Part shown: piece after piece, positions 520 to 8,761 of the stretch | Layout: each line of letters opens with the position of its first letter | Numbering within the stretch: the first letter of the stretch is position 1 | DNA from: a virus | Virus genome (UHGV): UHGV-1746862 | Reading direction: 5' to 3' (one strand) | DNA length: 13,572 nucleotides | Position numbers and translations under genes: made by a program | The notes under the pieces: model-generated | What the model saw: the letters and a program-made list of their open reading frames with translations, nothing else | Told to the model about the DNA's origin: nothing | Databases searched by the model: none

Positions 520-813
520 ATGGCTATTATCAAAAACGTTGTAATTACTGCAAAGACTCGTGATGACGCTCGCGTTATGGCTAAAAAGTTATGCGGGAAA
601 GTGGTTGACAATGGAAAACAATCTGCTGTAAGGTGGGGCGTGAAGGTTGATAAACAGTTGAAGTTAAAAAATTCACCGATAAACCTTTTTACATGTGTAA
701 ACACTATCGGGAAGACAAATGTATACACGAAAAAGGCATACATTAGACGCGTAGCATTAACATCCCCCATTCGTACAATGAGAAGTTATGCAAAGCTGAA
801 AATTAACAAATAA
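520..813 (+). CDS. Hypothetical small basic protein (97 aa)
   Basis: ATG at 520 with GGAG at cassette spacing. The ORF track's 505 start is an in-frame TTG inside the RBS and is rejected. Stop TAA 811-813 immediately followed by the next cassette. Confidence 0.7.
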   Translation: MAIIKNVVITAKTRDDARVMAKKLCGKVVDNGKQSAVRWGVKVDKQLKLKNSPINLFTCVNTIGKTNVYTKKAYIRRVALTSPIRTMRSYAKLKINK

Positions 814-900
814 AGTACTTTACAGGGGGCTTAAAAGTTGATATCTTAAGCCCCAGATAAAGAGCTTTACCACTCAATCCTTAAACTAGGAGATTCAAAA
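811..900 (+). promoter_or_regulatory. Type A cassette (variant stem)
   Basis: TTTACA 819-824; TATCTT 842-847; stem GGGGCTTAA 826-834 / TTAAGCCCC 846-854; CTAGGAGATTCAAAA then ATG at 901. Confidence 0.55.
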
Positions 901-1413
901 ATGAAAACTGTAGACGCTACCTTTGAAGTTGTAAAAGAAAAATTCACCATTATTTACGAAGCTGTCAATTGTTATGAAGCAAGCCATAATCTTGATAATT
1001 GGAAGTTTACAGATGACCATCAAGGCGGCGTGACTGTTAAAAATCCTAACTGTCAGCGTAATGAATTTAAATATGCAATCCCTTTACATTACAGCCTTAA
1101 ACAGCTTTCAAGTGACTATGCAAAACAAGGCCGTGAGAATCCATCGAAAGAGGCTTACACGAGCTTACAGAAAGAACTAGAAAGAGATTTAGAGGCTTCA
1201 GAGTATAACCTTGCCGCGAAAGTTGTGGATGCAAACGGTAGCACGGTTTTAGAAAGTTTTTATCTTGGTTATGCTTTCGATTGGTGCTATCGTGACGGCG
1301 ATGATTTAGAGGATAGACTAAAAGAAGAGGTGAACAACGCAGACGCAGAATCTGAAGTATTAGAACGTTTGGAATCGTTGAAAGACTCAGTGATGAATAT
1401 CTTTAAGAACTAA
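901..1413 (+). CDS. Hypothetical acidic protein (170 aa)
   Basis: ORF with cassette RBS; stop TAA 1411-1413 abuts the next cassette; no recognisable motif. Confidence 0.75.
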   Translation: MKTVDATFEVVKEKFTIIYEAVNCYEASHNLDNWKFTDDHQGGVTVKNPNCQRNEFKYAIPLHYSLKQLSSDYAKQGRENPSKEAYTSLQKELERDLEASEYNLAAKVVDANGSTVLESFYLGYAFDWCYRDGDDLEDRLKEEVNNADAESEVLERLESLKDSVMNIFKN

Positions 1414-2576: not shown

Positions 2577-2981
2577 ATGGCTATTAATAACCGTGAATTA
2601 TCAATTTTAAAAGCACGTTTGACCGTTAACCGGATTAATGTTATCACGTCATCAGCACCAGATGAAACACTGCAAAACATTATTGGGAAGATTCAAAGTG
2701 TTATCTTAGACGTTGAAAGCGTAAAAAATTCATTGGCTGACGTTGCAGCAGGTATCACACTAGACGGTGCGCAATATGAAATGTCCGACATGTTAGGCAA
2801 ATCTAAGGTAATGAATAAAGAGTTAGATTTGAAAATGTTCCGATTTGCTGTTAAAGTGTGGCTATCTGTCGAGTATGATGCTAACTTTGCAATCGCTGAC
2901 TTTTTCGCCACTTGGTTGCAGCGTAATTTGACTAATCATGACTTCCGCGATATCTGGGATGCAATTTATGCAGAACTCTAA
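2577..2981 (+). CDS. Hypothetical protein (134 aa)
   Basis: ATG at 2577 with cassette RBS; the track's 2562 start is an in-frame TTG inside the RBS and is rejected. Confidence 0.7.
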   Translation: MAINNRELSILKARLTVNRINVITSSAPDETLQNIIGKIQSVILDVESVKNSLADVAAGITLDGAQYEMSDMLGKSKVMNKELDLKMFRFAVKVWLSVEYDANFAIADFFATWLQRNLTNHDFRDIWDAIYAEL

Positions 2982-2990
2982 AAAATTTTG

Positions 2991-3085
2991 TTGACACTGG
3001 TTTTTAGATAGATTAAATTACACATCAACGGGGAGGGAATGACCTTCCCCACTAAGTAAAGTCCTTAAACTAGGAGATTCAAAAA
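2991..3085 (+). promoter_or_regulatory. Type B cassette
   Basis: TTGACA 2991-2996; TAAATT 3014-3019; stem GGGGAGGG 3030-3037 / CCTTCCCC 3043-3050; CTAGGAGATTCAAAAA then ATG at 3086. Confidence 0.6.
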
Positions 3086-3289
3086 ATGGCTATTATTAAT
3101 GATTTAACCATTGAAACTACACACATCAAAGATATCAAAGTTGGCGATATAGTCCTTTCCCACGGCGTAGAAAAAACTGTCACTGCAAAGGATATCAAAG
3201 AGGATTCTTTCATGGGTAGGACTCTCTTCGGTGATTCTTATTGCTTAGGCTATCTTGCAGTTTTAAAAGTTGTCAAAAATAACAAATAA
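3086..3289 (+). CDS. Hypothetical protein (67 aa)
   Basis: ORF with cassette RBS; starts MAII like the gene at 520. Confidence 0.65.
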   Translation: MAIINDLTIETTHIKDIKVGDIVLSHGVEKTVTAKDIKEDSFMGRTLFGDSYCLGYLAVLKVVKNNK

Positions 3290-3375
3290 AGTACTTTACA
3301 AGGGGCTTAAAAGTTGATAACTTAAGCCCCAGATAAAGAGCTTTACCACTAAATCCTAAACTGGAGATTCTAAAA
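3287..3375 (+). promoter_or_regulatory. Type A cassette (stem variant as in 811-900)
   Basis: TTTACA 3295-3300; stem-loop 3302-3330; CTGGAGATTCTAAAA then ATG at 3376. Confidence 0.55.
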
Positions 3376-3624
3376 ATGATGAACTACTTTAACATTCCCG
3401 ATACCTGTAGATTATTGACACAAGAAGAAAATTTGGGTAAACCTTTCATTTACCACATGCCAGATAACACGGCAAAAACTTATAGTTACAATGTTAACCG
3501 TTTCACCGCATACGCTGCAAAGAACGGCTATAGGTTGGTTACTCAAAAAGTAATGCTGGTTACAACTGCTGGCGAGATTCCTACAGTTGCAGTCAAACTA
3601 GTTTTCTCAAAGAAAGTTAAATAA
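3376..3624 (+). CDS. Hypothetical protein (82 aa)
   Basis: ORF with cassette RBS; stop TAA 3622-3624 abuts the next cassette. Confidence 0.65.
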   Translation: MMNYFNIPDTCRLLTQEENLGKPFIYHMPDNTAKTYSYNVNRFTAYAAKNGYRLVTQKVMLVTTAGEIPTVAVKLVFSKKVK

Positions 3625-3709
3625 AGCACTTTACAAGGGGCTTATAGTTCGATAAAGTAAGCCCCAGATAAAGAGCTTTACCACTAAATCCTAAACTGGA
3701 GATTCAAAA
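3622..3709 (+). promoter_or_regulatory. Type A cassette
   Basis: TTTACA 3630-3635; stem-loop 3637-3665; CTGGAGATTCAAAA then ATG at 3710. Confidence 0.55.
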
Positions 3710-4252
3710 ATGAAATGCTATCACGGAACTACTCAAGAAAATTTCCTCAACCTGATTAATAACGGTGATAAACCATCAGGCGCATGGGATTGTTCGGATA
3801 TGGACGGCAATTTTTACGTGTATCCAGAAAATAAAATCTATGGCGACGATGATGAAGAGATAACATCGGAAGGTATTCAGCAAGCTCTAGGCAATGCCAC
3901 TATCACCGCAGCTTTTCAGATGAAGACTCAAAATATTGTTATCTTAGAACTCGATATTCCAGAGGATGAGCTAAACGATGATTATTCTTGTGATAATATG
4001 TCGAGTGTAGCAAGTTTTACAGAGTACTTTGATGTAAATTGGATTAAAAAGGTCTATACAACAGAGTTTAATGCTATGTATTCACCTTTTTGTCTTCCTT
4101 CATTGGATAACCCAAATTTAAACTATCTTGATGAGTCTCTGGAGCTTCTTGCTAAAAGTGTTCAACAGTCGGACAGTATTCAGGTTTTTTGTGACATCAT
4201 GGATACACTGACAGGAAACATTGCAGAAGAGGATTTAAAGAGCTTTTTCTAA
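3710..4252 (+). CDS. Hypothetical strongly acidic protein (180 aa)
   Basis: ORF with cassette RBS; many Asp/Glu runs (DDDEE, PEDELNDDY); followed by a terminator-like hairpin. Confidence 0.75.
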   Translation: MKCYHGTTQENFLNLINNGDKPSGAWDCSDMDGNFYVYPENKIYGDDDEEITSEGIQQALGNATITAAFQMKTQNIVILELDIPEDELNDDYSCDNMSSVASFTEYFDVNWIKKVYTTEFNAMYSPFCLPSLDNPNLNYLDESLELLAKSVQQSDSIQVFCDIMDTLTGNIAEEDLKSFF

Positions 4253-4318: not shown

Positions 4319-4552
4319 ATGCTTACAACCATTTACCTCATCCTTTCCATCTGTAATGGTCATTCATGTGATTTTAAAGGGCTTGAAGAGTTTACAGGAA
4401 GTAAAGAAAATGCTATTCAAGTTTGCCAGATAGCAAGACAAGACTATCCCGCTAGTGATGATATACAATGTTACTTTAAGACAGAAGATGAAGACGGTAT
4501 CTATTTTGACAGCGTAGATGGTCAGTATGAAATTATCATTGAAAAAGACTAG
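4319..4552 (+). CDS. Hypothetical small protein (77 aa) with hydrophobic, Cys-containing N-terminus
   Basis: ATG at 4319 with weak AGAGGG upstream; the only gene of the array without a cassette; N-terminus MLTTIYLILSICNGHSC. Confidence 0.5.
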   Translation: MLTTIYLILSICNGHSCDFKGLEEFTGSKENAIQVCQIARQDYPASDDIQCYFKTEDEDGIYFDSVDGQYEIIIEKD

Positions 4553-4643
4553 ACAAGCCTGATAAAAATCTGTAAATTGTCAATCAACGGGGAGGGAATG
4601 ACCTTCCCCACTAAGTACAATCCTTAAACTAGGAGATTCAAAA
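4550..4643 (+). promoter_or_regulatory. Type B cassette
   Basis: TAGACA 4550-4555 overlaps stop TAG 4550-4552; TAAATT 4573-4578; stem 4589-4609; CTAGGAGATTCAAAA then ATG at 4644. Confidence 0.55.
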
Positions 4644-4985
4644 ATGGCTTATGTAACCGTAATTACCGATAAAGAAAATTCATCTTGGTCAACTCAAGTA
4701 AGTGATAAGATGTCACCTATGCAGTGCCTAAAATACTTTGAACAGTGGAACAAAGGCGAGGACACAAGCCCCTTTCAAGTGATGCAGATTATCCATGTAG
4801 ATAACGAAGGGAATAAAACGGTTTTAAATAGTGAGTACTACGCAAGCCTTTTTGAAACGAGAAGTAAAACAATGAAGCTTTTACGTGAATCCGGTTATGC
4901 CCATATCGCCGCGTTAATCTGGGATGACCTGCTAAAAAACCAACGTATCAGCTATGTAAAACCTGAAAAAATATTCATCAGTTAA
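4644..4985 (+). CDS. Hypothetical protein (113 aa)
   Basis: ORF with cassette RBS. Confidence 0.7.
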   Translation: MAYVTVITDKENSSWSTQVSDKMSPMQCLKYFEQWNKGEDTSPFQVMQIIHVDNEGNKTVLNSEYYASLFETRSKTMKLLRESGYAHIAALIWDDLLKNQRISYVKPEKIFIS

Positions 4986-5208: not shown

Positions 5209-5739
5209 ATGAACAAGTTTAAAGCTATCAACTTCATTCGTTCAAATGCTGTAATGTCTAAGCCTGTAAAAGATACATATGAATTTCGTTGTAATGGGGT
5301 ACACTTTGCAACCATCACTAAGTCAGAAAACGGGGCTTATTATGTACATCGTCGTAATGTTGCAACCGTTGTAGTCTCTCACTTTATGCAAGCTGTAGCG
5401 GAATTATTACCGTTATTCTTAGAGATTTACTTAGATGAGTGTAAAAACGTTCACAACCACGTTAAAAACCTTTTAAACGGTTATAAAATGGCTTATGAAC
5501 GTTCTATCAAGTCACTAAACAAGTTTTACAATGCACCTGCAAATACTGTTTCAATGGCTTATGATGTAAACGGTGAGTTAGTTAGTCTCTTTAAAGTGGA
5601 AGAAATTAAACTGTATAATCTACGTCCTAGTGGTTACTCTAAGACTCTTGGTGAAGGTTTAACGTTCAATATCAAGAACTTAGAAAAAACTTTAAAAGAT
5701 ATTGAAAAAGATATTGACGAGACACTTAAAAGTCTGTAA
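5209..5739 (+). CDS. Hypothetical protein (176 aa)
   Basis: ORF with cassette RBS; its last codons and stop contain the promoter of the next cassette. Confidence 0.75.
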   Translation: MNKFKAINFIRSNAVMSKPVKDTYEFRCNGVHFATITKSENGAYYVHRRNVATVVVSHFMQAVAELLPLFLEIYLDECKNVHNHVKNLLNGYKMAYERSIKSLNKFYNAPANTVSMAYDVNGELVSLFKVEEIKLYNLRPSGYSKTLGEGLTFNIKNLEKTLKDIEKDIDETLKSL

Positions 5740-5806
5740 ATTGTCAATCAACGGGGAGGCGATAACCTCCCCACTAAATAAAACCCTTAAACTAGGAGAT
5801 TCAAAA
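5714..5806 (+). promoter_or_regulatory. Type B cassette, promoter embedded in the 3' end of the upstream gene
   Basis: TTGACG 5714-5719; TAAATT 5737-5742 overlaps stop TAA 5737-5739; stem GGGGAGG 5753-5759 / CCTCCCC 5766-5772; CTAGGAGATTCAAAA then ATG at 5807. Confidence 0.55.
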
Positions 5807-6055
5807 ATGGCAACTATCCGCGCTACTGTTAACGAGTTCGGTTTTTCCTCTCTGGATGTTAAATTTGACATTGCAGGCACTGATAACGCCTTTGAAATGG
5901 TGAAATGTCTTATCAGTCAGACCATCAAAGATTATAATCCTTCGGATGAGTTCTGGGAGGAAACAAAACAAGAAGTTCTCAAGGATGGTTATACTTATCA
6001 CTATTGGGGAGAAAAAATCGTCTCCCTGTACTACAACAAACAAGATTATAACTAA
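5807..6055 (+). CDS. Hypothetical protein (82 aa)
   Basis: ATG at 5807 with cassette RBS; the track's 5702 start is an in-frame extension running through the cassette and is rejected. Confidence 0.7.
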   Translation: MATIRATVNEFGFSSLDVKFDIAGTDNAFEMVKCLISQTIKDYNPSDEFWEETKQEVLKDGYTYHYWGEKIVSLYYNKQDYN

Positions 6056-6065
6056 TCGACGCAGC

Positions 6066-6117
6066 GGGGCTAAATAGCCCCAGATACCTGAACAGCCCCT
6101 TAAAATGGGGCTTTTTT
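6066..6117 (+). terminator. Two consecutive GC stem-loops, the second a canonical intrinsic terminator closing the rightward array
   Basis: GGGGCT-AAAT-AGCCCC 6066-6081; AGCCCC-TTAAAAT-GGGGCT 6094-6112 followed by TTTTT 6113-6117. Confidence 0.6.
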
Positions 6118-6560
6118 ACGTCTATGTAATAGCCTCTATTCAATCCTTTTCCTTTCCTTTCCAGAATCTATCCCACTGATTCAATAGAATCTTATCAGAC
6201 CTTAAAAGCAATAACTCTATAGTCTACTCTATAACCTCTTATCAAATCAACTTAAATAAAAGCCAATAACCCCAGAAAGGGGATGGCCCATTTAAACGCT
6301 CTATAAAGCTCTATAACAGCCTTATCAACCTAACTTAAGGGATTGCATTACCTCACCCTAAAAAGCCCTTTATAAAGCTTCCCAGAGACTTAAAAGAATC
6401 TTATAAGGGTGTAAGCTTTATCATCTCATTAGTATTCTTGTGAATATCTAAACAACCCCTTGATAGTCACTAAAAAGTATGTTATAGGGGCTTTAAAGTT
6501 ACTTTGAAGTAGCTTAAAAGTTACGTAAAAGAGGCTATAAAGTTACGTAAATGCTAGCCC

Positions 6561-6661
6561 CCTTAACATTCTCTTAACAATTTCTTAACAATCCCTACAT
6601 AGTTATGCTTTTAAGGCACTTGTTAGCAACTTGTTAGTCCCTTGTTAAATCTCTGTTAAGA
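6561..6661. repeat. Head-to-head sub-array: three CTTAACA sites, then four TGTTA(G/A) sites in the opposite orientation, each set at exact 11-bp spacing
   Basis: TAACA cores start at 6564, 6575, 6586; TGTTA cores start at 6621, 6632, 6643, 6654. Confidence 0.7.
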
Positions 6662-6863
6662 CCACGTAAAAGCCTTGTAAGAGTCTTTGACATAGCCTTA
6701 AAAGCTCCTGTAAAGCCCTATAAAGAGCTATCTGTACAGTTGGGGGATAGATACTAGGAAGAGACTTAAAAGAGCTTACAAAGAGCTATAGAGAGCTTTT
6801 AAGAGGGCTATTTAGAGAATCACTAAGAGAGAAAGGGAACGATAAGACCAGAGATAGTGACCA

Positions 6864-7140
6864 TGTTAATAGCTTGTTAAAAAGATTAAACACTTGTTAG
6901 AAACTTGTTAATTATCTTAACAAAATAACTCTTTAAAATTAACTTGTTAGCTCTTGTTAATCATCTGTTAAGACTCTGTAAAGACTATTCAGCACTTGTT
7001 AGAAAACTGTTACAGCCTTGTTAGTTCTGTTAAGAAACTGTTAAGACCTTTGAAGAGTTGTTAAGAAGGTGTTAGAACTGTTAAGAGATTGTTAAGGATA
7101 TTTTAAAATTTTGCAAAGTACTTGTAAGGGAGCTGTTAAG
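6864..7140 (+). repeat. Tandem array of about 17 TGTTA(A)G-family sites, mostly phased at 9-11 bp
   Basis: TGTTA cores start at 6864, 6875, 6895, 6906, 6945, 6955, 6966, 6997, 7008, 7019, 7028, 7039, 7059, 7070, 7079, 7090, 7134; one inverted copy (CTTAACA) at 6916-6922. Confidence 0.7.
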
Positions 7141-7429
7141 GGCTACCAAGCAGATATACATCCTAATCAGATATTTTTGAGTTCCTTCAAAGACCCTAAA
7201 AAATGACTTGACAGTCCTATTTTATAAAAATTTTAAGATTCTGAATAATTACCTATACAGCCTTTTAAAAATACAGGTAATAACAGGCTTATAAGATACC
7301 TTGTTAGTACCGTGTTAGACCTTGTGAGATAAGGCCTGTAAAGATATTCCTGTTAAGTTTATTAAAACAGTCTATATAGAGGCTTAGTAATACCTAGTGA
7401 ACACCTATAGAGAGTATCATAGCTGACAT

Positions 7430-7635
7430 AGAGATTAAGAGGTGTATAGGAGCTTCTAAGAAGGTGTAGAGGGATGGTTAAGGTGATTGTATAGGTTGTT
7501 AAGAAGGCTTGTTAGAGGGCTTGTTAGAAGGGTTATACAGAGGGGCTATTAAGACCACTAGATAGTTACTAAGATACTATATAGTACTATATAACTATAT
7601 AGAGAGTAAGATTAAGAAGGTTGTTAAGAAGGATA
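7430..7635 (+). repeat. Cluster of longer motif variants ((C)TTGTTA(A)GAAGG, AAGGTGTAGAGG)
   Basis: TTGTTAAGAAGG at 7496-7507 and 7621-7632; CTTGTTAGAGGG at 7508-7519; CTTGTTAGAAGGG at 7520-7532; related GGTGTATAGG / AAGGTGTAGAGGG at 7440-7473. Confidence 0.55.
7575..7602. repeat. TATA-rich palindromic cluster
   Basis: Perfect 12-bp palindrome TACTATATAGTA at 7575-7586; three CTATATA(G) copies at 7577, 7587 and 7595. Confidence 0.6.
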
Positions 7636-7690
7636 GATATTTTGTTCACATATGATGGTGACCCAGAGGTTGGGACAACCGATAAAATTT

Positions 7691-7723
7691 TATAAAAGTA
7701 AAAAGCCCCCAATTAAGGAGGCT
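7691..7723 (-). terminator. Putative intrinsic terminator closing the leftward gene cluster
   Basis: On the minus strand, AGCCUCC-UUAAUU-GGGGGCU (7 bp stem with one G-U pair) followed by UUUUACUUUUAUA, just past stop TAA 7735-7737. Confidence 0.55.
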
Positions 7724-7734
7724 CTTAAGATATT

Positions 7735-8358
7735 TTAAATCAGTGTTTCCAGAACTGTTTTTAATGATGACTTGGTTGTCTGATAAAAATGAGTAAATCC
7801 ATTATTGTTATCGAATATCTGCATCATAACAGCATCTCCCTTGATTGGGTACACTCGGATATCATAGTGAAAACCATTAAAGACACAAGAGCCATTACAG
7901 AATGCACTAAAGTCATCCACTGAGATATACTCTTCATGCCCTGTGATTTTTATACAAACACCTTTACTCGGTCTCTTAGGGTTGATATCTTCCATCACAG
8001 ACATACTCTGCCCACCAAGAGATACCATAGTGACCACTTTACGGTTCTTCTGTTTAAAGTACATCTTAACTTTCTGTAAAGTGTCTTCATAGAACGGGTA
8101 AGACCTTTCTACAAAGATTCCTTCAAGTGGCTCTTTACCATTTTCAACTTCTCTGTTATGCCGTACTGCAAAGATAATTTGTTCGAACCAGTCAAGATTT
8201 TCTTCGGAGAGTGCTTCTCGAACATCACTCCAGTCAAGTACTAGGTAGTTACCTTCAACTTCTTTTAAGTTATCTTTTTCCATAGATATCACACCATTAT
8301 CGTAAAACTTGATATTCTGGTACTGCGAATTTATTACTATTGTTCTTGATGAGGTCAT
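7735..8358 (-). CDS. Hypothetical protein (207 aa; possibly starts at the internal ATG 8283, giving 182 aa)
   Basis: Long ORF; the first 62 nt overlap the upstream gene in another frame; no clear SD before ATG 8358. Confidence 0.65.
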   Translation of the reverse strand: MTSSRTIVINSQYQNIKFYDNGVISMEKDNLKEVEGNYLVLDWSDVREALSEENLDWFEQIIFAVRHNREVENGKEPLEGIFVERSYPFYEDTLQKVKMYFKQKNRKVVTMVSLGGQSMSVMEDINPKRPSKGVCIKITGHEEYISVDDFSAFCNGSCVFNGFHYDIRVYPIKGDAVMMQIFDNNNGFTHFYQTTKSSLKTVLETLI

Positions 8359-8761
8359 CCTCTGAAACTAAAAATGTAATACCACATAAGTGTCTGTAAC
8401 GACTATCATACTCGAATATCTTAAACAGATATTTACCATCATGATAAACCTGTTGCACTTCACCTTCTGCAACAATCTCGCCTGTAATAAAATTTTTTAG
8501 TTTATACACATTACCAACCTTAGGTACTGTTTTCATCTCAGGCTCTTTTAGTGCTACACCTATTTTTACATCACCGAGTAAATGAGAACTCTCAAAAGCT
8601 ACGTGTTTCATATAGGCTTCTGAGCATTCCCAAATAAAACAATGTACAAGAACCTTAGCAGCATGTCTTGAGCAGTTCAACTTATCACAAATTTCTGTGT
8701 ACATCTCATCTTTAGTAGAATTGTCAAGCATTGCTCTTTGCACTACTTCTTTAATTTTCAT
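8297..8761 (-). CDS. Hypothetical protein (154 aa)
   Basis: ORF in the leftward cluster, overlapping the upstream gene by 11 nt. Confidence 0.7.
   Translation of the reverse strand: MKIKEVVQRAMLDNSTKDEMYTEICDKLNCSRHAAKVLVHCFIWECSEAYMKHVAFESSHLLGDVKIGVALKEPEMKTVPKVGNVYKLKNFITGEIVAEGEVQQVYHDGKYLFKIFEYDSRYRHLCGITFLVSEDDLIKNNSNKFAVPEYQVLR

What the first reader, a model, noticed from the sequence alone, without database searches (positions are those of the whole stretch)
7575..7602. TATA-rich palindromes next to the motif arrays: possible unwinding or recognition element
A perfect 12-bp palindrome TACTATATAGTA (7575-7586) and three CTATATA(G) copies lie between motif clusters. An easily melted palindromic A/T element beside repeated binding sites is the classic iteron-plus-unwinding-element layout of replication origins, but it could equally be a nuclease or terminase recognition site.
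Basis: partly seen in the sequence, partly recalled or inferred. Interest (0 to 1): 0.5.

Follow-up and report, generated by a model that had tools for sequence, protein, structure and literature searches.

The report
Meltable TATA repeats near phage genome end
The TATA-rich palindromes are real and are the most easily melted DNA of a Felix O1-type phage genome. The "motif arrays" beside them are the phage's 591-bp terminal repeat and its non-coding end regions, so this is a conserved element of the genome end, probably a strand-opening site, rather than a plasmid-style iteron origin.

Summary
The window is Felixounavirus (Felix O1-like myophage) DNA. In detail: TACTATATAGTA at 7575-7586 and three ACTATATA units at 7576-7601.

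The element lies in a 1.68-kb ORF-free stretch (6056-7734) between convergent gene blocks. This stretch is a collapsed concatemer junction:
- right-end leader, 6130-6556
- direct terminal repeat (DTR), 6557-7147
- left-end leader, 7148-7734

The DTR matches duplicated or annotated termini in three database records. DTRs of similar length are published for this genus, in one case from wet-lab mapping.

The element sits 428 bp inside the DTR. CTATATAG occurs nowhere else in a related 87-kb genome. Its window bases are unchanged in 24 relatives, and its units are kept across three genera. With nearest-neighbour energies it is the least stable 30-50-bp duplex of that genome.

It is absent from Kolesnikvirus, which keeps the arrays and DTR-boundary boxes and has a different AT-rich box instead.

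Best guess (about 0.35): a strand-opening site near the concatemer junction, like T7's AT-rich origins. Main rival (about 0.3): a bendable protein-binding site in a packaging or end complex. A classical iteron origin is unlikely, and it is not the cleavage site. No paper found describes it. Interest is moderate.

The parts
6066..6112 (+). Two terminator-like hairpins that end the rightward (+) gene block (GGGGCTAAATAGCCCC; AGCCCCTTAAAATGGGGCT followed by a T run)
   Evidence: conserved across genera
6130..6556 (.). Right-end subterminal non-coding leader. It is unique sequence that precedes the right DTR copy in the virion. It is C-rich on the + strand and carries phased CTnnnnAG units (CTCTATAA, CTTAAAAG, CTATAAAG).
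   Evidence: CTCTATA occurs 4 times on the + strand here, at 6215, 6227, 6299 and 6309.
6557..7147 (.). Direct terminal repeat (DTR), 591 bp, present once in this collapsed assembly. It is built of about 11-bp-phased CTTGTTAG / CTGTTAAGA units.
   Evidence: The start of record MH571750 maps to 6557 and its end to 7147; its 613-bp ends are 100% identical. The query 6557-7147 matches record positions 1-581 of MW481326 (annotated 'short direct terminal repeat'), 1-591 of OR498728 and 1-613 of MH571750, each present twice in its record. Literature: PMC8303462, PMC6454146, PMC4837284.
6557..6568 (+). Left terminus box GCCCCCTTAACA. CCCTTAACA starts 3 nt from the left end.
   Evidence: unique in the window; conserved across genera, with TTAA/TTTA variation
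7134..7162 (+). Right DTR boundary box TGTTAAGGGCTACC|AAGCAGATATACATC. It contains an inverted copy of the terminus motif 5 nt from the end, followed by a conserved box just outside the DTR.
   Evidence: The core GGGCTACCAAGCAGATATACA is identical in the six sequences from three genera and recognisable in Kolesnikvirus.
7148..7734 (.). Left-end subterminal non-coding leader. It is G-rich on the + strand and is the most conserved part of the region. It contains the finding.
   Evidence: 94-97% identity to 24 relatives against 91% for the adjacent ORF. About 78% DNA identity to Mooglevirus, where the adjacent protein is only about 50% identical.
7217..7236 (.). Conserved A/T box CTATTTTATAAAAATTT(TAA), the second least stable site
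7372..7399 (.). Arm A of a three-block inverted repeat: CTATATAG-n3-CTTAGT-n5-CTAGTG. It includes the fourth CTATATAG.
   Evidence: (I9, I22). The blocks are nearly identical across three genera while the spacers vary.
7556..7584 (.). Arm B of the inverted repeat: CACTAG-n6-ACTAAG-n3-CTATATAG. It overlaps the first TATA unit.
7575..7602 (.). The finding: three ACTATATA(G/A) units (7576, 7586, 7594) and two overlapping 12-bp palindromes. GC content is 18%, with 11 TpA steps.
7701..7726 (-). Terminator-like hairpin that ends the leftward (-) gene block; possibly bidirectional

Best explanation
SHOWN: the window is the concatemer-junction view of a Felix O1-like phage genome with short direct terminal repeats (DTR). 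The repeat is 6557-7147. The TATA element lies 428 bp inside it, about 1.0 kb from the left physical end, in a gene-free leader that is conserved more strongly than the neighbouring genes.

INFERRED: the element works as a strand-opening (DNA-unwinding) site. Its 11 TpA steps make it the weakest duplex of the genome. Under negative superhelical stress, or when a nearby protein-DNA complex forms on the phased arrays, it would open first and let the phage's T7-like replication proteins (primase-helicase, PolA-type polymerase) load.

This would start DNA synthesis next to the terminal repeat. That is the layout of the promoter-plus-AT-rich origins phiOL and phiOR that flank the T7 concatemer junction (from my own knowledge of T7, not tested here). 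Such synthesis could serve genome replication, the regeneration of the terminal repeat during packaging, or both.

The arrays are not plasmid-type iterons. They are the terminal repeat and its flanks. They probably bind a packaging or end-binding protein, because the same motif marks both cut sites.
For: Context:
- Felixounavirus identity.
- DTR mapped to 6557-7147 (PMC8303462, PMC6454146; a similar-length DTR mapped by experiment in PMC4837284).

Meltability:
- Least stable 20-100-bp window of the 13.5-kb window.
- Least stable 30- and 50-bp window of the whole 86,950-bp relative.
- Dominant opening site (P about 0.93-0.96) in a simplified stress-induced-opening model with nearest-neighbour energies.

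Repeat anatomy:
- Three tandem AT-rich 8-10-mers, as in the 13-mers of oriC-type unwinding elements (from my own knowledge).
- The first two units are identical in all 25 aligned Felixounavirus sequences. The third tolerates (TA)n expansions of +2 to +6 bp in 8 of 25. Spacing and copy number vary between genera. So composition and repetition matter more than exact geometry.

Uniqueness: CTATATAG occurs only here in the genome, as expected of a single cis-acting site.

Property conserved where the sequence is not: Kolesnikvirus lacks the TATA triple. Its left leader carries another A/T box that is the second least stable 30-bp window of that 84-kb genome.

Replication genes: T7-like replication genes are annotated in the relative's record, and no initiator gene is annotated there.
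Against: - No replication data exist. Nothing in the sequence shows initiation.
- With AT/GC-only energies the model opens at about 6918 and about 7232 instead, so the ranking depends on the energy model.
- The divergent DNA-polymerase/primase intergenic region of the relative (50,090-50,290) is the least stable 100-200-bp stretch and is a more conventional origin location.
- No convincing promoter faces the element. Promoter-like sites number 7, against 6.5 expected.
- Exact conservation of the ACTATATA units across three genera, and membership in a conserved three-block inverted repeat, look more like protein recognition than a pure composition requirement.
- The element is absent from Kolesnikvirus, which keeps the arrays.
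Confidence: 0.35

Rival explanations
1. Architectural or recognition site of a packaging or genome-end protein-DNA complex. A phage protein (an unidentified small terminase or an end-binding protein) coats the phased GTTAAGA/CTnnnnAG arrays. The TATA triple, which is very bendable at its TpA steps, would be a specific binding site or hinge. It would let the DNA fold so that both DTR boundaries can be cut, or so that the end is protected or positioned.
For: - The element sits between two clusters of the array motif.
- The same motif, CCCTTAACA / TGTTAAGGG, lies inverted 3-5 nt from each DTR end and occurs nowhere else in the window.
- Array indels come in multiples of about 11 bp, so helical phase is preserved. 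The spectral period is about 11.1 bp.
- The element forms a conserved three-block inverted repeat with 7372-7399. Blocks are conserved and spacers vary.
- CTATATAG is unique to this region of the genome.
- CTCTATA occurs only left of the DTR, and its complement TATAGAG only to the right of 6787.
Against: - The element is 428 bp from the nearest cut site.
- (TA)n expansions and spacing changes are tolerated.
- No small terminase or DNA-binding protein was identified. The neighbouring proteins have no known domains.
- Shared k-mers between the inverted flanks are only weakly above shuffles (z about 1.4-1.7).
- The element is absent in Kolesnikvirus although the boundary boxes are kept.
Confidence: 0.3
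2. Transcription element: a promoter, an operator, or part of a non-coding RNA made from the left leader. This would fit the G-rich inward-reading strand and the flanking, possibly bidirectional, terminators.
For: - TATAGT, a good -10-like hexamer, occurs on both strands of the element.
- GC skew in both leaders is opposite to that of the flanking genes.
- Palindromic 8-mers are typical of sites bound by dimeric regulators (from my own knowledge).
Against: - No -35 partner lies at 16-18 bp, and promoter-like sites are not above chance.
- No Rfam family matches.
- RNAalifold gives an unfavourable covariation term, with only 2 compensatory pairs out of 121.
- Fold energies are not below those of shuffles (z = -0.6 and -1.0).
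- The motif is absent from all other intergenic regions, so it is not a general phage promoter.
Confidence: 0.12
3. Classical iteron origin. The arrays would be initiator-binding iterons and the TATA repeats the adjacent unwinding element, as in plasmid or lambda-type origins.
For: - Repeated motifs lie beside a highly meltable tandem AT-rich repeat.
- The region is non-coding.
Against: - There are roughly 100 units spread over 1.68 kb, not 3-10.
- The central block is the terminal repeat.
- No Rep-like gene is adjacent or annotated.
- DnaA and IHF sites are not enriched.
- Kolesnikvirus keeps the arrays without the element.
Confidence: 0.07
4. By-product without a function of its own. The element would be just another CTnnnnAG array unit (CT-ATAT-AG) whose inner TA dinucleotides expand by slippage, conserved only because the genomes are closely related.
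For: - It fits the generic unit, CTATATAG = CT-nnnn-AG.
- TA-microsatellite length variation occurs in the third copy.
Against: - All window bases of the element are unchanged in 24 relatives (99.9%), while the adjacent ORF is 91% identical.
- The units persist in genera whose neighbouring protein is only about 50% identical.
- The motif is genome-unique and clustered.
Confidence: 0.08
5. The element is itself the terminase or nuclease cleavage site, that is, a DNA end.
For: - Palindromes are typical nuclease targets (from my own knowledge).
- The element is near the genome end.
Against: Independent records and published termini place the ends at positions equivalent to 6557 and 7147, which are 1018 and 428 bp away (a similar-length DTR by experiment).
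Confidence: 0.02

Closest known systems
Phage T7 concatemer junction: the terminal repeat flanked by short-repeat arrays and by the phiOL/phiOR promoter-plus-AT-rich secondary origins (from my own knowledge; no T7 sequence was examined here)
   Same: - Short exact DTR.
- Gene-free leaders beside it, filled with short imperfect repeats.
- An AT-rich, easily opened segment a few hundred bp inside the repeat.
- A T7-like replication gene set: primase-helicase, PolA-type polymerase, exonuclease and ligase.
   Different: - No phage RNA polymerase and no recognisable promoter next to the element.
- The DTR is about 590 bp, against 160 bp in T7.
- The repeats are phased at about 11 bp and extend through the DTR itself.
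- The flanking genes point outward towards both ends.
Phage T5 'injection stop signal' region: the large untranslated, repeat- and palindrome-rich part of the left terminal repeat (Davison, bioRxiv 10.1101/866236)
   Same: A long untranslated region tied to the terminal repeat. It is dense in direct repeats, inverted repeats and palindromes, is conserved across relatives, and has no proven function.
   Different: - T5's region lies inside a repeat of about 10 kb and is defined by 8 ordered DnaA boxes. Here DnaA boxes are at chance level.
- Two-step DNA injection is not known for Felix O1.
DNA-unwinding elements of oriC-type and plasmid origins (tandem AT-rich 13-mers)
   Same: - Three tandem AT-rich repeats.
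- The lowest helical stability in the replicon.
- Next to repeated motifs.
   Different: - No DnaA boxes.
- No initiator gene.
- The units are 8-10 bp and palindromic.
- The neighbouring repeats are the terminal repeat, not iterons.
Phage phi29 protein p6 complex at the genome ends (from my own knowledge)
   Same: Periodic signals, spaced at about one helical turn, near both genome ends could organise a wrapped protein-DNA complex that helps open the DNA.
   Different: - phi29 replicates by protein priming from the very ends and has no DTR.
- No p6-like protein was identified here.

Membership tests
Short direct terminal repeat (T7-type DTR) genome end / concatemer junction | An identical sequence of a few hundred bp at both physical ends of the virion DNA | tested here: met
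   Record MH571750 carries 613-bp, 100% identical ends that map to window 6557-7147. The same interval matches the duplicated or annotated termini of MW481326 and OR498728. Published: 581 bp and 613 bp by PhageTerm, 608 bp by Bal31 digestion plus run-off sequencing.
Short direct terminal repeat (T7-type DTR) genome end / concatemer junction | The finding itself lies inside the repeat or at a cut site | tested here: not met
   7575-7602 is 428 bp beyond the inner DTR boundary at 7147/7148.
Iteron-type replication origin (plasmid / lambda type) | A small set of direct repeats bound by a replicon-encoded initiator, whose gene is usually adjacent | tested here: not met
   Roughly 100 phased units over 1.68 kb. 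The ten flanking proteins have no Pfam domain and fall in PHROG families of unknown function. No initiator gene is annotated in the relative.
Iteron-type replication origin (plasmid / lambda type) | An AT-rich unwinding element of low helical stability next to the repeats | tested here: met
   Least stable 20-100-bp window of the window and least stable 30-50-bp window of the related genome. The stress-opening model result depends on the energy set used.
Iteron-type replication origin (plasmid / lambda type) | Host-factor sites (DnaA boxes, IHF sites) in the origin | tested here: not met
   TTATNCACA with up to 1 mismatch: 20 matches against 19.5 expected. IHF consensus: 3 against 1.5 expected, none near the element.
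Iteron-type replication origin (plasmid / lambda type) | Replication actually initiates there | not testable with these tools
   This needs marker-frequency sequencing, 2D gels or electron microscopy of infected cells.
T7-type origin (promoter followed by an AT-rich loading zone) | AT-rich, low-stability segment | tested here: met
T7-type origin (promoter followed by an AT-rich loading zone) | A promoter directing transcription into the AT-rich segment | tested here: inconclusive
   The sigma-70 scan is at chance level and finds no site facing the element. Phage-specific promoters are unknown for this group (PMC3185647).
T5-like injection-stop (iss) untranslated repeat region | An ordered series of DnaA boxes within the untranslated repeat region of the terminal repeat | tested here: not met
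   DnaA boxes are at chance level. The definition is taken from the Davison preprint.
Structured non-coding RNA (Rfam families or a new one) | A match to a covariance model, or covariation supporting a conserved fold | tested here: not met
   No Rfam hit in the region at E <= 1. No tRNA. RNAalifold covariation term +2.92, with 2 compensatory pairs of 121. Fold z-scores -0.6 and -1.0.
General phage promoter motif (for example the T4-type late TATAAATA) | The motif recurs upstream of many genes | tested here: not met
   CTATATAG occurs only in this leader. TATAAATA occurs 3 times in 87 kb.

The most novel reading that the evidence does not exclude
The two gene-free leaders and the terminal repeat, about 1.1-1.2 kb at each virion end, carry roughly 100 CTnnnnA(G/A) units phased at about 11.1 bp. 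Together they could form a telomere-like wrapped protein-DNA structure built by an unrecognised phage protein whose motif also marks both cut sites.

In this reading the genome-unique TATA triple, paired with its inverted partner at 7372-7399, is the hinge or melting point of that structure. It would couple end protection, replication start and terminal-repeat regeneration. That would be a new kind of end organisation for a tailed phage.
Probability: 0.12. Interest if true: 0.7.

Novelty: new member of a known kind. Interest (0 to 1): 0.42.

Why it matters
Felix O1-type phages are widely used for Salmonella and E. coli typing, biocontrol and therapy. More than 250 genomes are deposited, yet nothing is known about their replication origin or packaging signals.

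This analysis shows three things:
- The largest non-coding stretch of these genomes is the concatemer junction.
- That stretch is under stronger constraint than the neighbouring genes.
- It contains a genome-unique, maximally meltable repeat.

Together these give a concrete and cheap target for mapping the origin and the packaging signal, and for engineering. For example, they show what must be kept when rebooting synthetic genomes or building transducing vectors.

The analysis also explains why assemblies and database records of these phages open at different places, and why many lack the second repeat copy.

Tried and rejected
- Rfam and tRNA scans of the window found nothing in the region.
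- The sigma-70 promoter scan was at chance level.
- DnaA-box and IHF-site scans were at chance level.
- Pfam and PHROG scans of ten flanking proteins found no domains and only families of unknown function, so no initiator or DNA-binding candidate emerged.
- GC skew as an origin indicator was rejected. Cumulative skew simply follows the direction of transcription.
- RNA or ssDNA structure: there is no covariation support and fold energies are not better than shuffles.
- T4-type late promoter idea: the motif is not enriched.
- Inverted symmetry of the two leaders: shared k-mers are only weakly above shuffles, so this is kept as an observation only.
- Scanning IMG/VR for CTATATA triplets found many unrelated contigs with similar tandem triplets. 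No common context was evident, and this was not followed up.
- Literature searches found the DTR lengths but no description of the arrays or the TATA element, and no transcriptome or replication mapping for this group.
- The similarity of CTTAAAAG-type motifs in other intergenic regions to the array units was considered as evidence for a global regulator. It was set aside because there they are parts of terminator hairpins or promoter modules.

Full report
**What the window is.** Megablast of 5900-8400 finds 256 phage records, almost all Felixounavirus. The best is OZ035779 at 96.6%, and Felix O1 itself matches at about 90% at 12,150-14,585. The finding lies in an ORF-free stretch, 6056-7734. 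Rightward genes end at 6055 and leftward genes end at 7735. Terminator-like hairpins sit on both sides. Annotated relatives show the same gap, at most labelled 'repeat_region' or 'terminator'. The Felix O1 and wV8 genome papers do not discuss it.

**The observation.**
- The sequence at 7575-7602 is TACTATATAGTACTATATAACTATATAG.
- TACTATATAGTA is a perfect palindrome, and so is the overlapping TATAGTACTATA.
- CTATATA starts at 7577, 7587 and 7595, and a fourth CTATATAG lies at 7372.
- Twelve-bp palindromes are not rare here: 11 observed against 4.2 expected.
- The triple cluster never appeared in 300 simulations, and CTATATA is four-fold over-represented.
- In the complete genome of the relative Ro111lw, CTATATAG occurs three times, all in this region.

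**What the 'motif arrays' are.** The whole non-coding stretch holds roughly 100 CTnnnnA(G/A) matches, such as CTTGTTAG, CTGTTAAG, CTTAAAAG, CTATAAAG and CTATATAG. Most lie 10-12 bp apart or at multiples of 11 bp. The spectral peak is at 11.1-11.2 bp. Among 25 relatives, indels cluster at 10-12, 21-24, 32-33 and 88-121 bp, so units are gained and lost whole.

Many independent records open about 570 bp upstream of window position 7130. Record MH571750 has 613-bp ends that are 100% identical. Its first base maps to window 6557 and its last to 7147. The interval 6557-7147 matches positions 1-581 of MW481326 (annotated 'short direct terminal repeat'), 1-591 of OR498728 and 1-613 of MH571750, each present twice in its record.

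Published work agrees on DTR length. PhageTerm gave 581-bp and 613-bp repeats (PMC8303462, PMC6454146). Bal31 digestion plus run-off sequencing gave 608 bp in UAB_Phi87 (PMC4837284).

So the window is a collapsed concatemer junction:
- right-end leader, 6130-6556
- DTR, 6557-7147
- left-end leader, 7148-7734

The 5' ends of the two strands read GCCCCCTTAACA... and GGTAGCCCTTAACA.... CCCTTAACA and its complement TGTTAAGGG each occur once in the window, inverted, 3 and 5 nt from the ends. The array motif is therefore also the motif at the cut sites. Array density of this kind is found only at the two genome ends.

**Where the element sits and how it is conserved.** It lies 428 bp inside the inner DTR boundary, about 1.0 kb from the left physical end.
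- In 24 relatives every window base of the element is unchanged (99.9%).
- The left leader is 94-97% identical, against 91% for the adjacent ORF.
- The only variation is (TA)n expansion of the third unit, by +2, +4 or +6 bp, in 8 of 25 sequences.
- Across genera (Mooglevirus: Mordin, Silverhawkium, SFPB; Suspvirus: SUSP1) the ACTATATA units persist. Spacing changes from 10/8 to 11/10, and SUSP1 has four copies.
- The 12-bp palindrome itself is not kept, but the 8-bp CTATATAG is.
- These genera share about 78% DNA identity in the leader but only about 50% identity in the neighbouring protein. The non-coding DNA is therefore under the stronger constraint.
- The first unit is part of a conserved three-block inverted repeat: CTATATAG..CTTAGT..CTAGTG at 7372-7399 and CACTAG..ACTAAG..CTATATAG at 7556-7584. 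The blocks are conserved and the spacers vary.

**The more distant relatives.** Kolesnikvirus phages of Erwinia (FIfi106, Roscha1) have the same convergent gene-free region with GTTAAGA and CTTCTAAG arrays. Both boundary boxes are recognisable (..TTAG|CCACTTTTACA.. and ..TTTGCAAAG..GGCCAC|TAAG(C/T)AGATATACA). The Roscha1 record opens exactly at the homologous left terminus. There is no CTATATA triple, and the aligned position is occupied by GTTAAGA units.

Their left leader instead carries TAATTTTTAAAAAATAGAAAATTA. This is the second least stable 30-bp window of the 84-kb FIfi106 genome. So a very meltable box in the left leader is conserved across the subfamily, while the TATA sequence is specific to one clade.

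**Melting.**
- With SantaLucia nearest-neighbour energies the element is the least stable 20-, 30-, 50- and 100-bp window of the 13.5-kb window (z = 3.2-3.8).
- It is also the least stable 30- and 50-bp window of the whole Ro111lw genome.
- At 100-200 bp it ranks second, behind the divergent DNA-polymerase/primase intergenic region.
- A simplified single-run version of Benham's stress-induced-opening model gives P(open) about 0.93-0.96 at the element for sigma -0.055 to -0.07 with nearest-neighbour energies.
- With AT/GC-only energies, opening goes to about 6918 (inside the DTR) and about 7232.
- All predicted sites are inside this non-coding region, but the ranking depends on the energy model.

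**What it is not.**
- Not a DNA end: the termini are at 6557 and 7147.
- Not a known RNA: there is no Rfam or tRNA hit, no covariation support, and unremarkable fold energies.
- Not a recurrent promoter motif.
- Not surrounded by DnaA or IHF sites.
- Not next to any recognisable initiator or DNA-binding gene (annotations).
- GC skew only tracks the direction of transcription.

**Most likely mechanism.** The context is solid. The function is inferred.

I favour a strand-opening role (about 0.35), for these reasons:
- The element is the weakest duplex of the genome.
- It consists of tandem AT-rich units.
- It tolerates TA expansion and spacing change.
- It is replaced in Kolesnikvirus by a different but similarly unstable box.
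- The phage encodes a T7-like replisome without an initiator.
- T7-type origins are AT-rich zones, and two of them flank the T7 concatemer junction (from my own knowledge).

The main rival (about 0.3) is a bendable recognition site or hinge in a packaging or end-binding complex assembled on the phased arrays. Supporting it:
- The same motif marks both cut sites.
- The element belongs to a conserved inverted repeat.
- It is unique in the genome.

The two ideas are not exclusive. Lesser rivals are a transcription element (0.12), a functionless array variant (0.08), a classical iteron origin (0.07), and the cleavage site itself (0.02).

**Comparison with known systems.** The closest analogues are:
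- the T7 concatemer junction, with its repeat arrays and AT-rich secondary origins beside the repeat;
- the untranslated repeat- and palindrome-rich 'iss' region of the T5 terminal repeat (Davison preprint);
- oriC-type 13-mer unwinding elements.

The defining features of an iteron origin (adjacent initiator, few iterons, host-factor sites) and of T5 iss (ordered DnaA boxes) were tested and not met. The DTR membership of the neighbouring array block was tested and met.

**Novelty and interest.** The DTR of these phages is known. No paper I could find describes the phased array structure, the motif at the cut sites, or the TATA element. The finding is best classed as a new member of a known kind: a cis-acting element of a DTR-phage genome end. 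Interest is moderate. It offers a precise, testable candidate for the unknown origin or packaging signal of a much-used phage group.

Noticed in passing
window 6056-7734: Length differences among 25 relatives in the non-coding region cluster at 10-12, 21-24, 32-33 and 88-121 bp, that is, whole multiples of the ~11-bp unit. The arrays therefore evolve by gain and loss of whole units while keeping helical phase.
   Followed up: partly
window 6560-6568 and 7134-7142: The inverted terminus motifs vary together between phages. The central tetranucleotide is TTAA at both ends in the window, Felix O1 and Silverhawkium. It is TTTA at both ends in Mordin and SUSP1. SFPB is mixed. This hints that one protein reads both DTR boundaries.
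   Followed up: partly
L032 5070-5305 (Ro111lw 50,070-50,305): The divergent intergenic region between the DNA polymerase gene and the primase-helicase block is the least stable 100-200-bp stretch of the genome. It carries tandem TTGACA boxes and a 27-nt near-palindrome, and is a conventional alternative candidate for the replication origin.
   Followed up: partly
window 780-905, 1400-1510, 2120-2225, 2975-3090, 3280-3380, 3615-3715, 4545-4650, 5730-5812: The small rightward genes are separated by recurring modules of about 70-90 bp. Each has a GC hairpin (GGGGCTTAAAAG..CTTAAGCCCC or GGGGAGG..CCTCCCC), sometimes a TTGACA promoter, and a near-identical ribosome-binding leader CCTTAAACTAGGAGATTCAAAAATG. 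The 12-bp palindrome TAAAGTACTTTA recurs 4 times. These match the direct repeats reported for Felix O1 (PMC3185647).
   Followed up: partly
L029 (Shigella phage Silverhawkium), aligned to window ~6420, ~6918 and ~6950: Three copies of a 22-bp palindromic insert, AATTGGTATTGTTACCAATCCC, interrupt the arrays in this phage only. It looks like a miniature mobile palindromic element.
   Followed up: no
L033, L048, L054, L055, L058, L061, L063, L083, L086, L089, L093, L095 and other IMG/VR contigs: Tandem triplets or longer arrays of CTATATAG-containing units occur in dozens of unrelated viral contigs, for example CTATATAGACTATATAGACTATATAG. This may be a recurrent phage motif or just tandem-repeat noise.
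   Followed up: no
window 6130-6556 versus 7148-7734: The two leaders have opposite strand composition. GC skew is -0.2 to -0.35 on the left and +0.27 to +0.49 on the right, so the strand read inward from each virion end is G-rich. This is opposite to the flanking genes. CTCTATA occurs only in the right-end leader, and its complement TATAGAG only to the right of 6787.
   Followed up: partly
GU169904.1 (Staphylococcus phage SA1, 147 kb), 137,082-137,669: This Staphylococcus phage record contains Felix O1-like sequence. The neighbouring protein matches at 89% identity, and the non-coding region also matches. The record is probably chimeric or contaminated.
   Followed up: no
window 3615-3685 (- strand): A weak Rfam hit to the mir-980 microRNA precursor (24.3 bits against a gathering score of 47, E = 0.13). 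It overlaps an intergenic terminator hairpin and is almost certainly chance.
   Followed up: no
window 7642-7665: The box TT(G/A)TTCACATATGATGGTGACCCA is conserved across three genera. In Felix O1 itself it contains a perfect DnaA-box consensus, TTATTCACA, but the window has TTGTTCACA and Mooglevirus has a 1-nt deletion there.
   Followed up: partly
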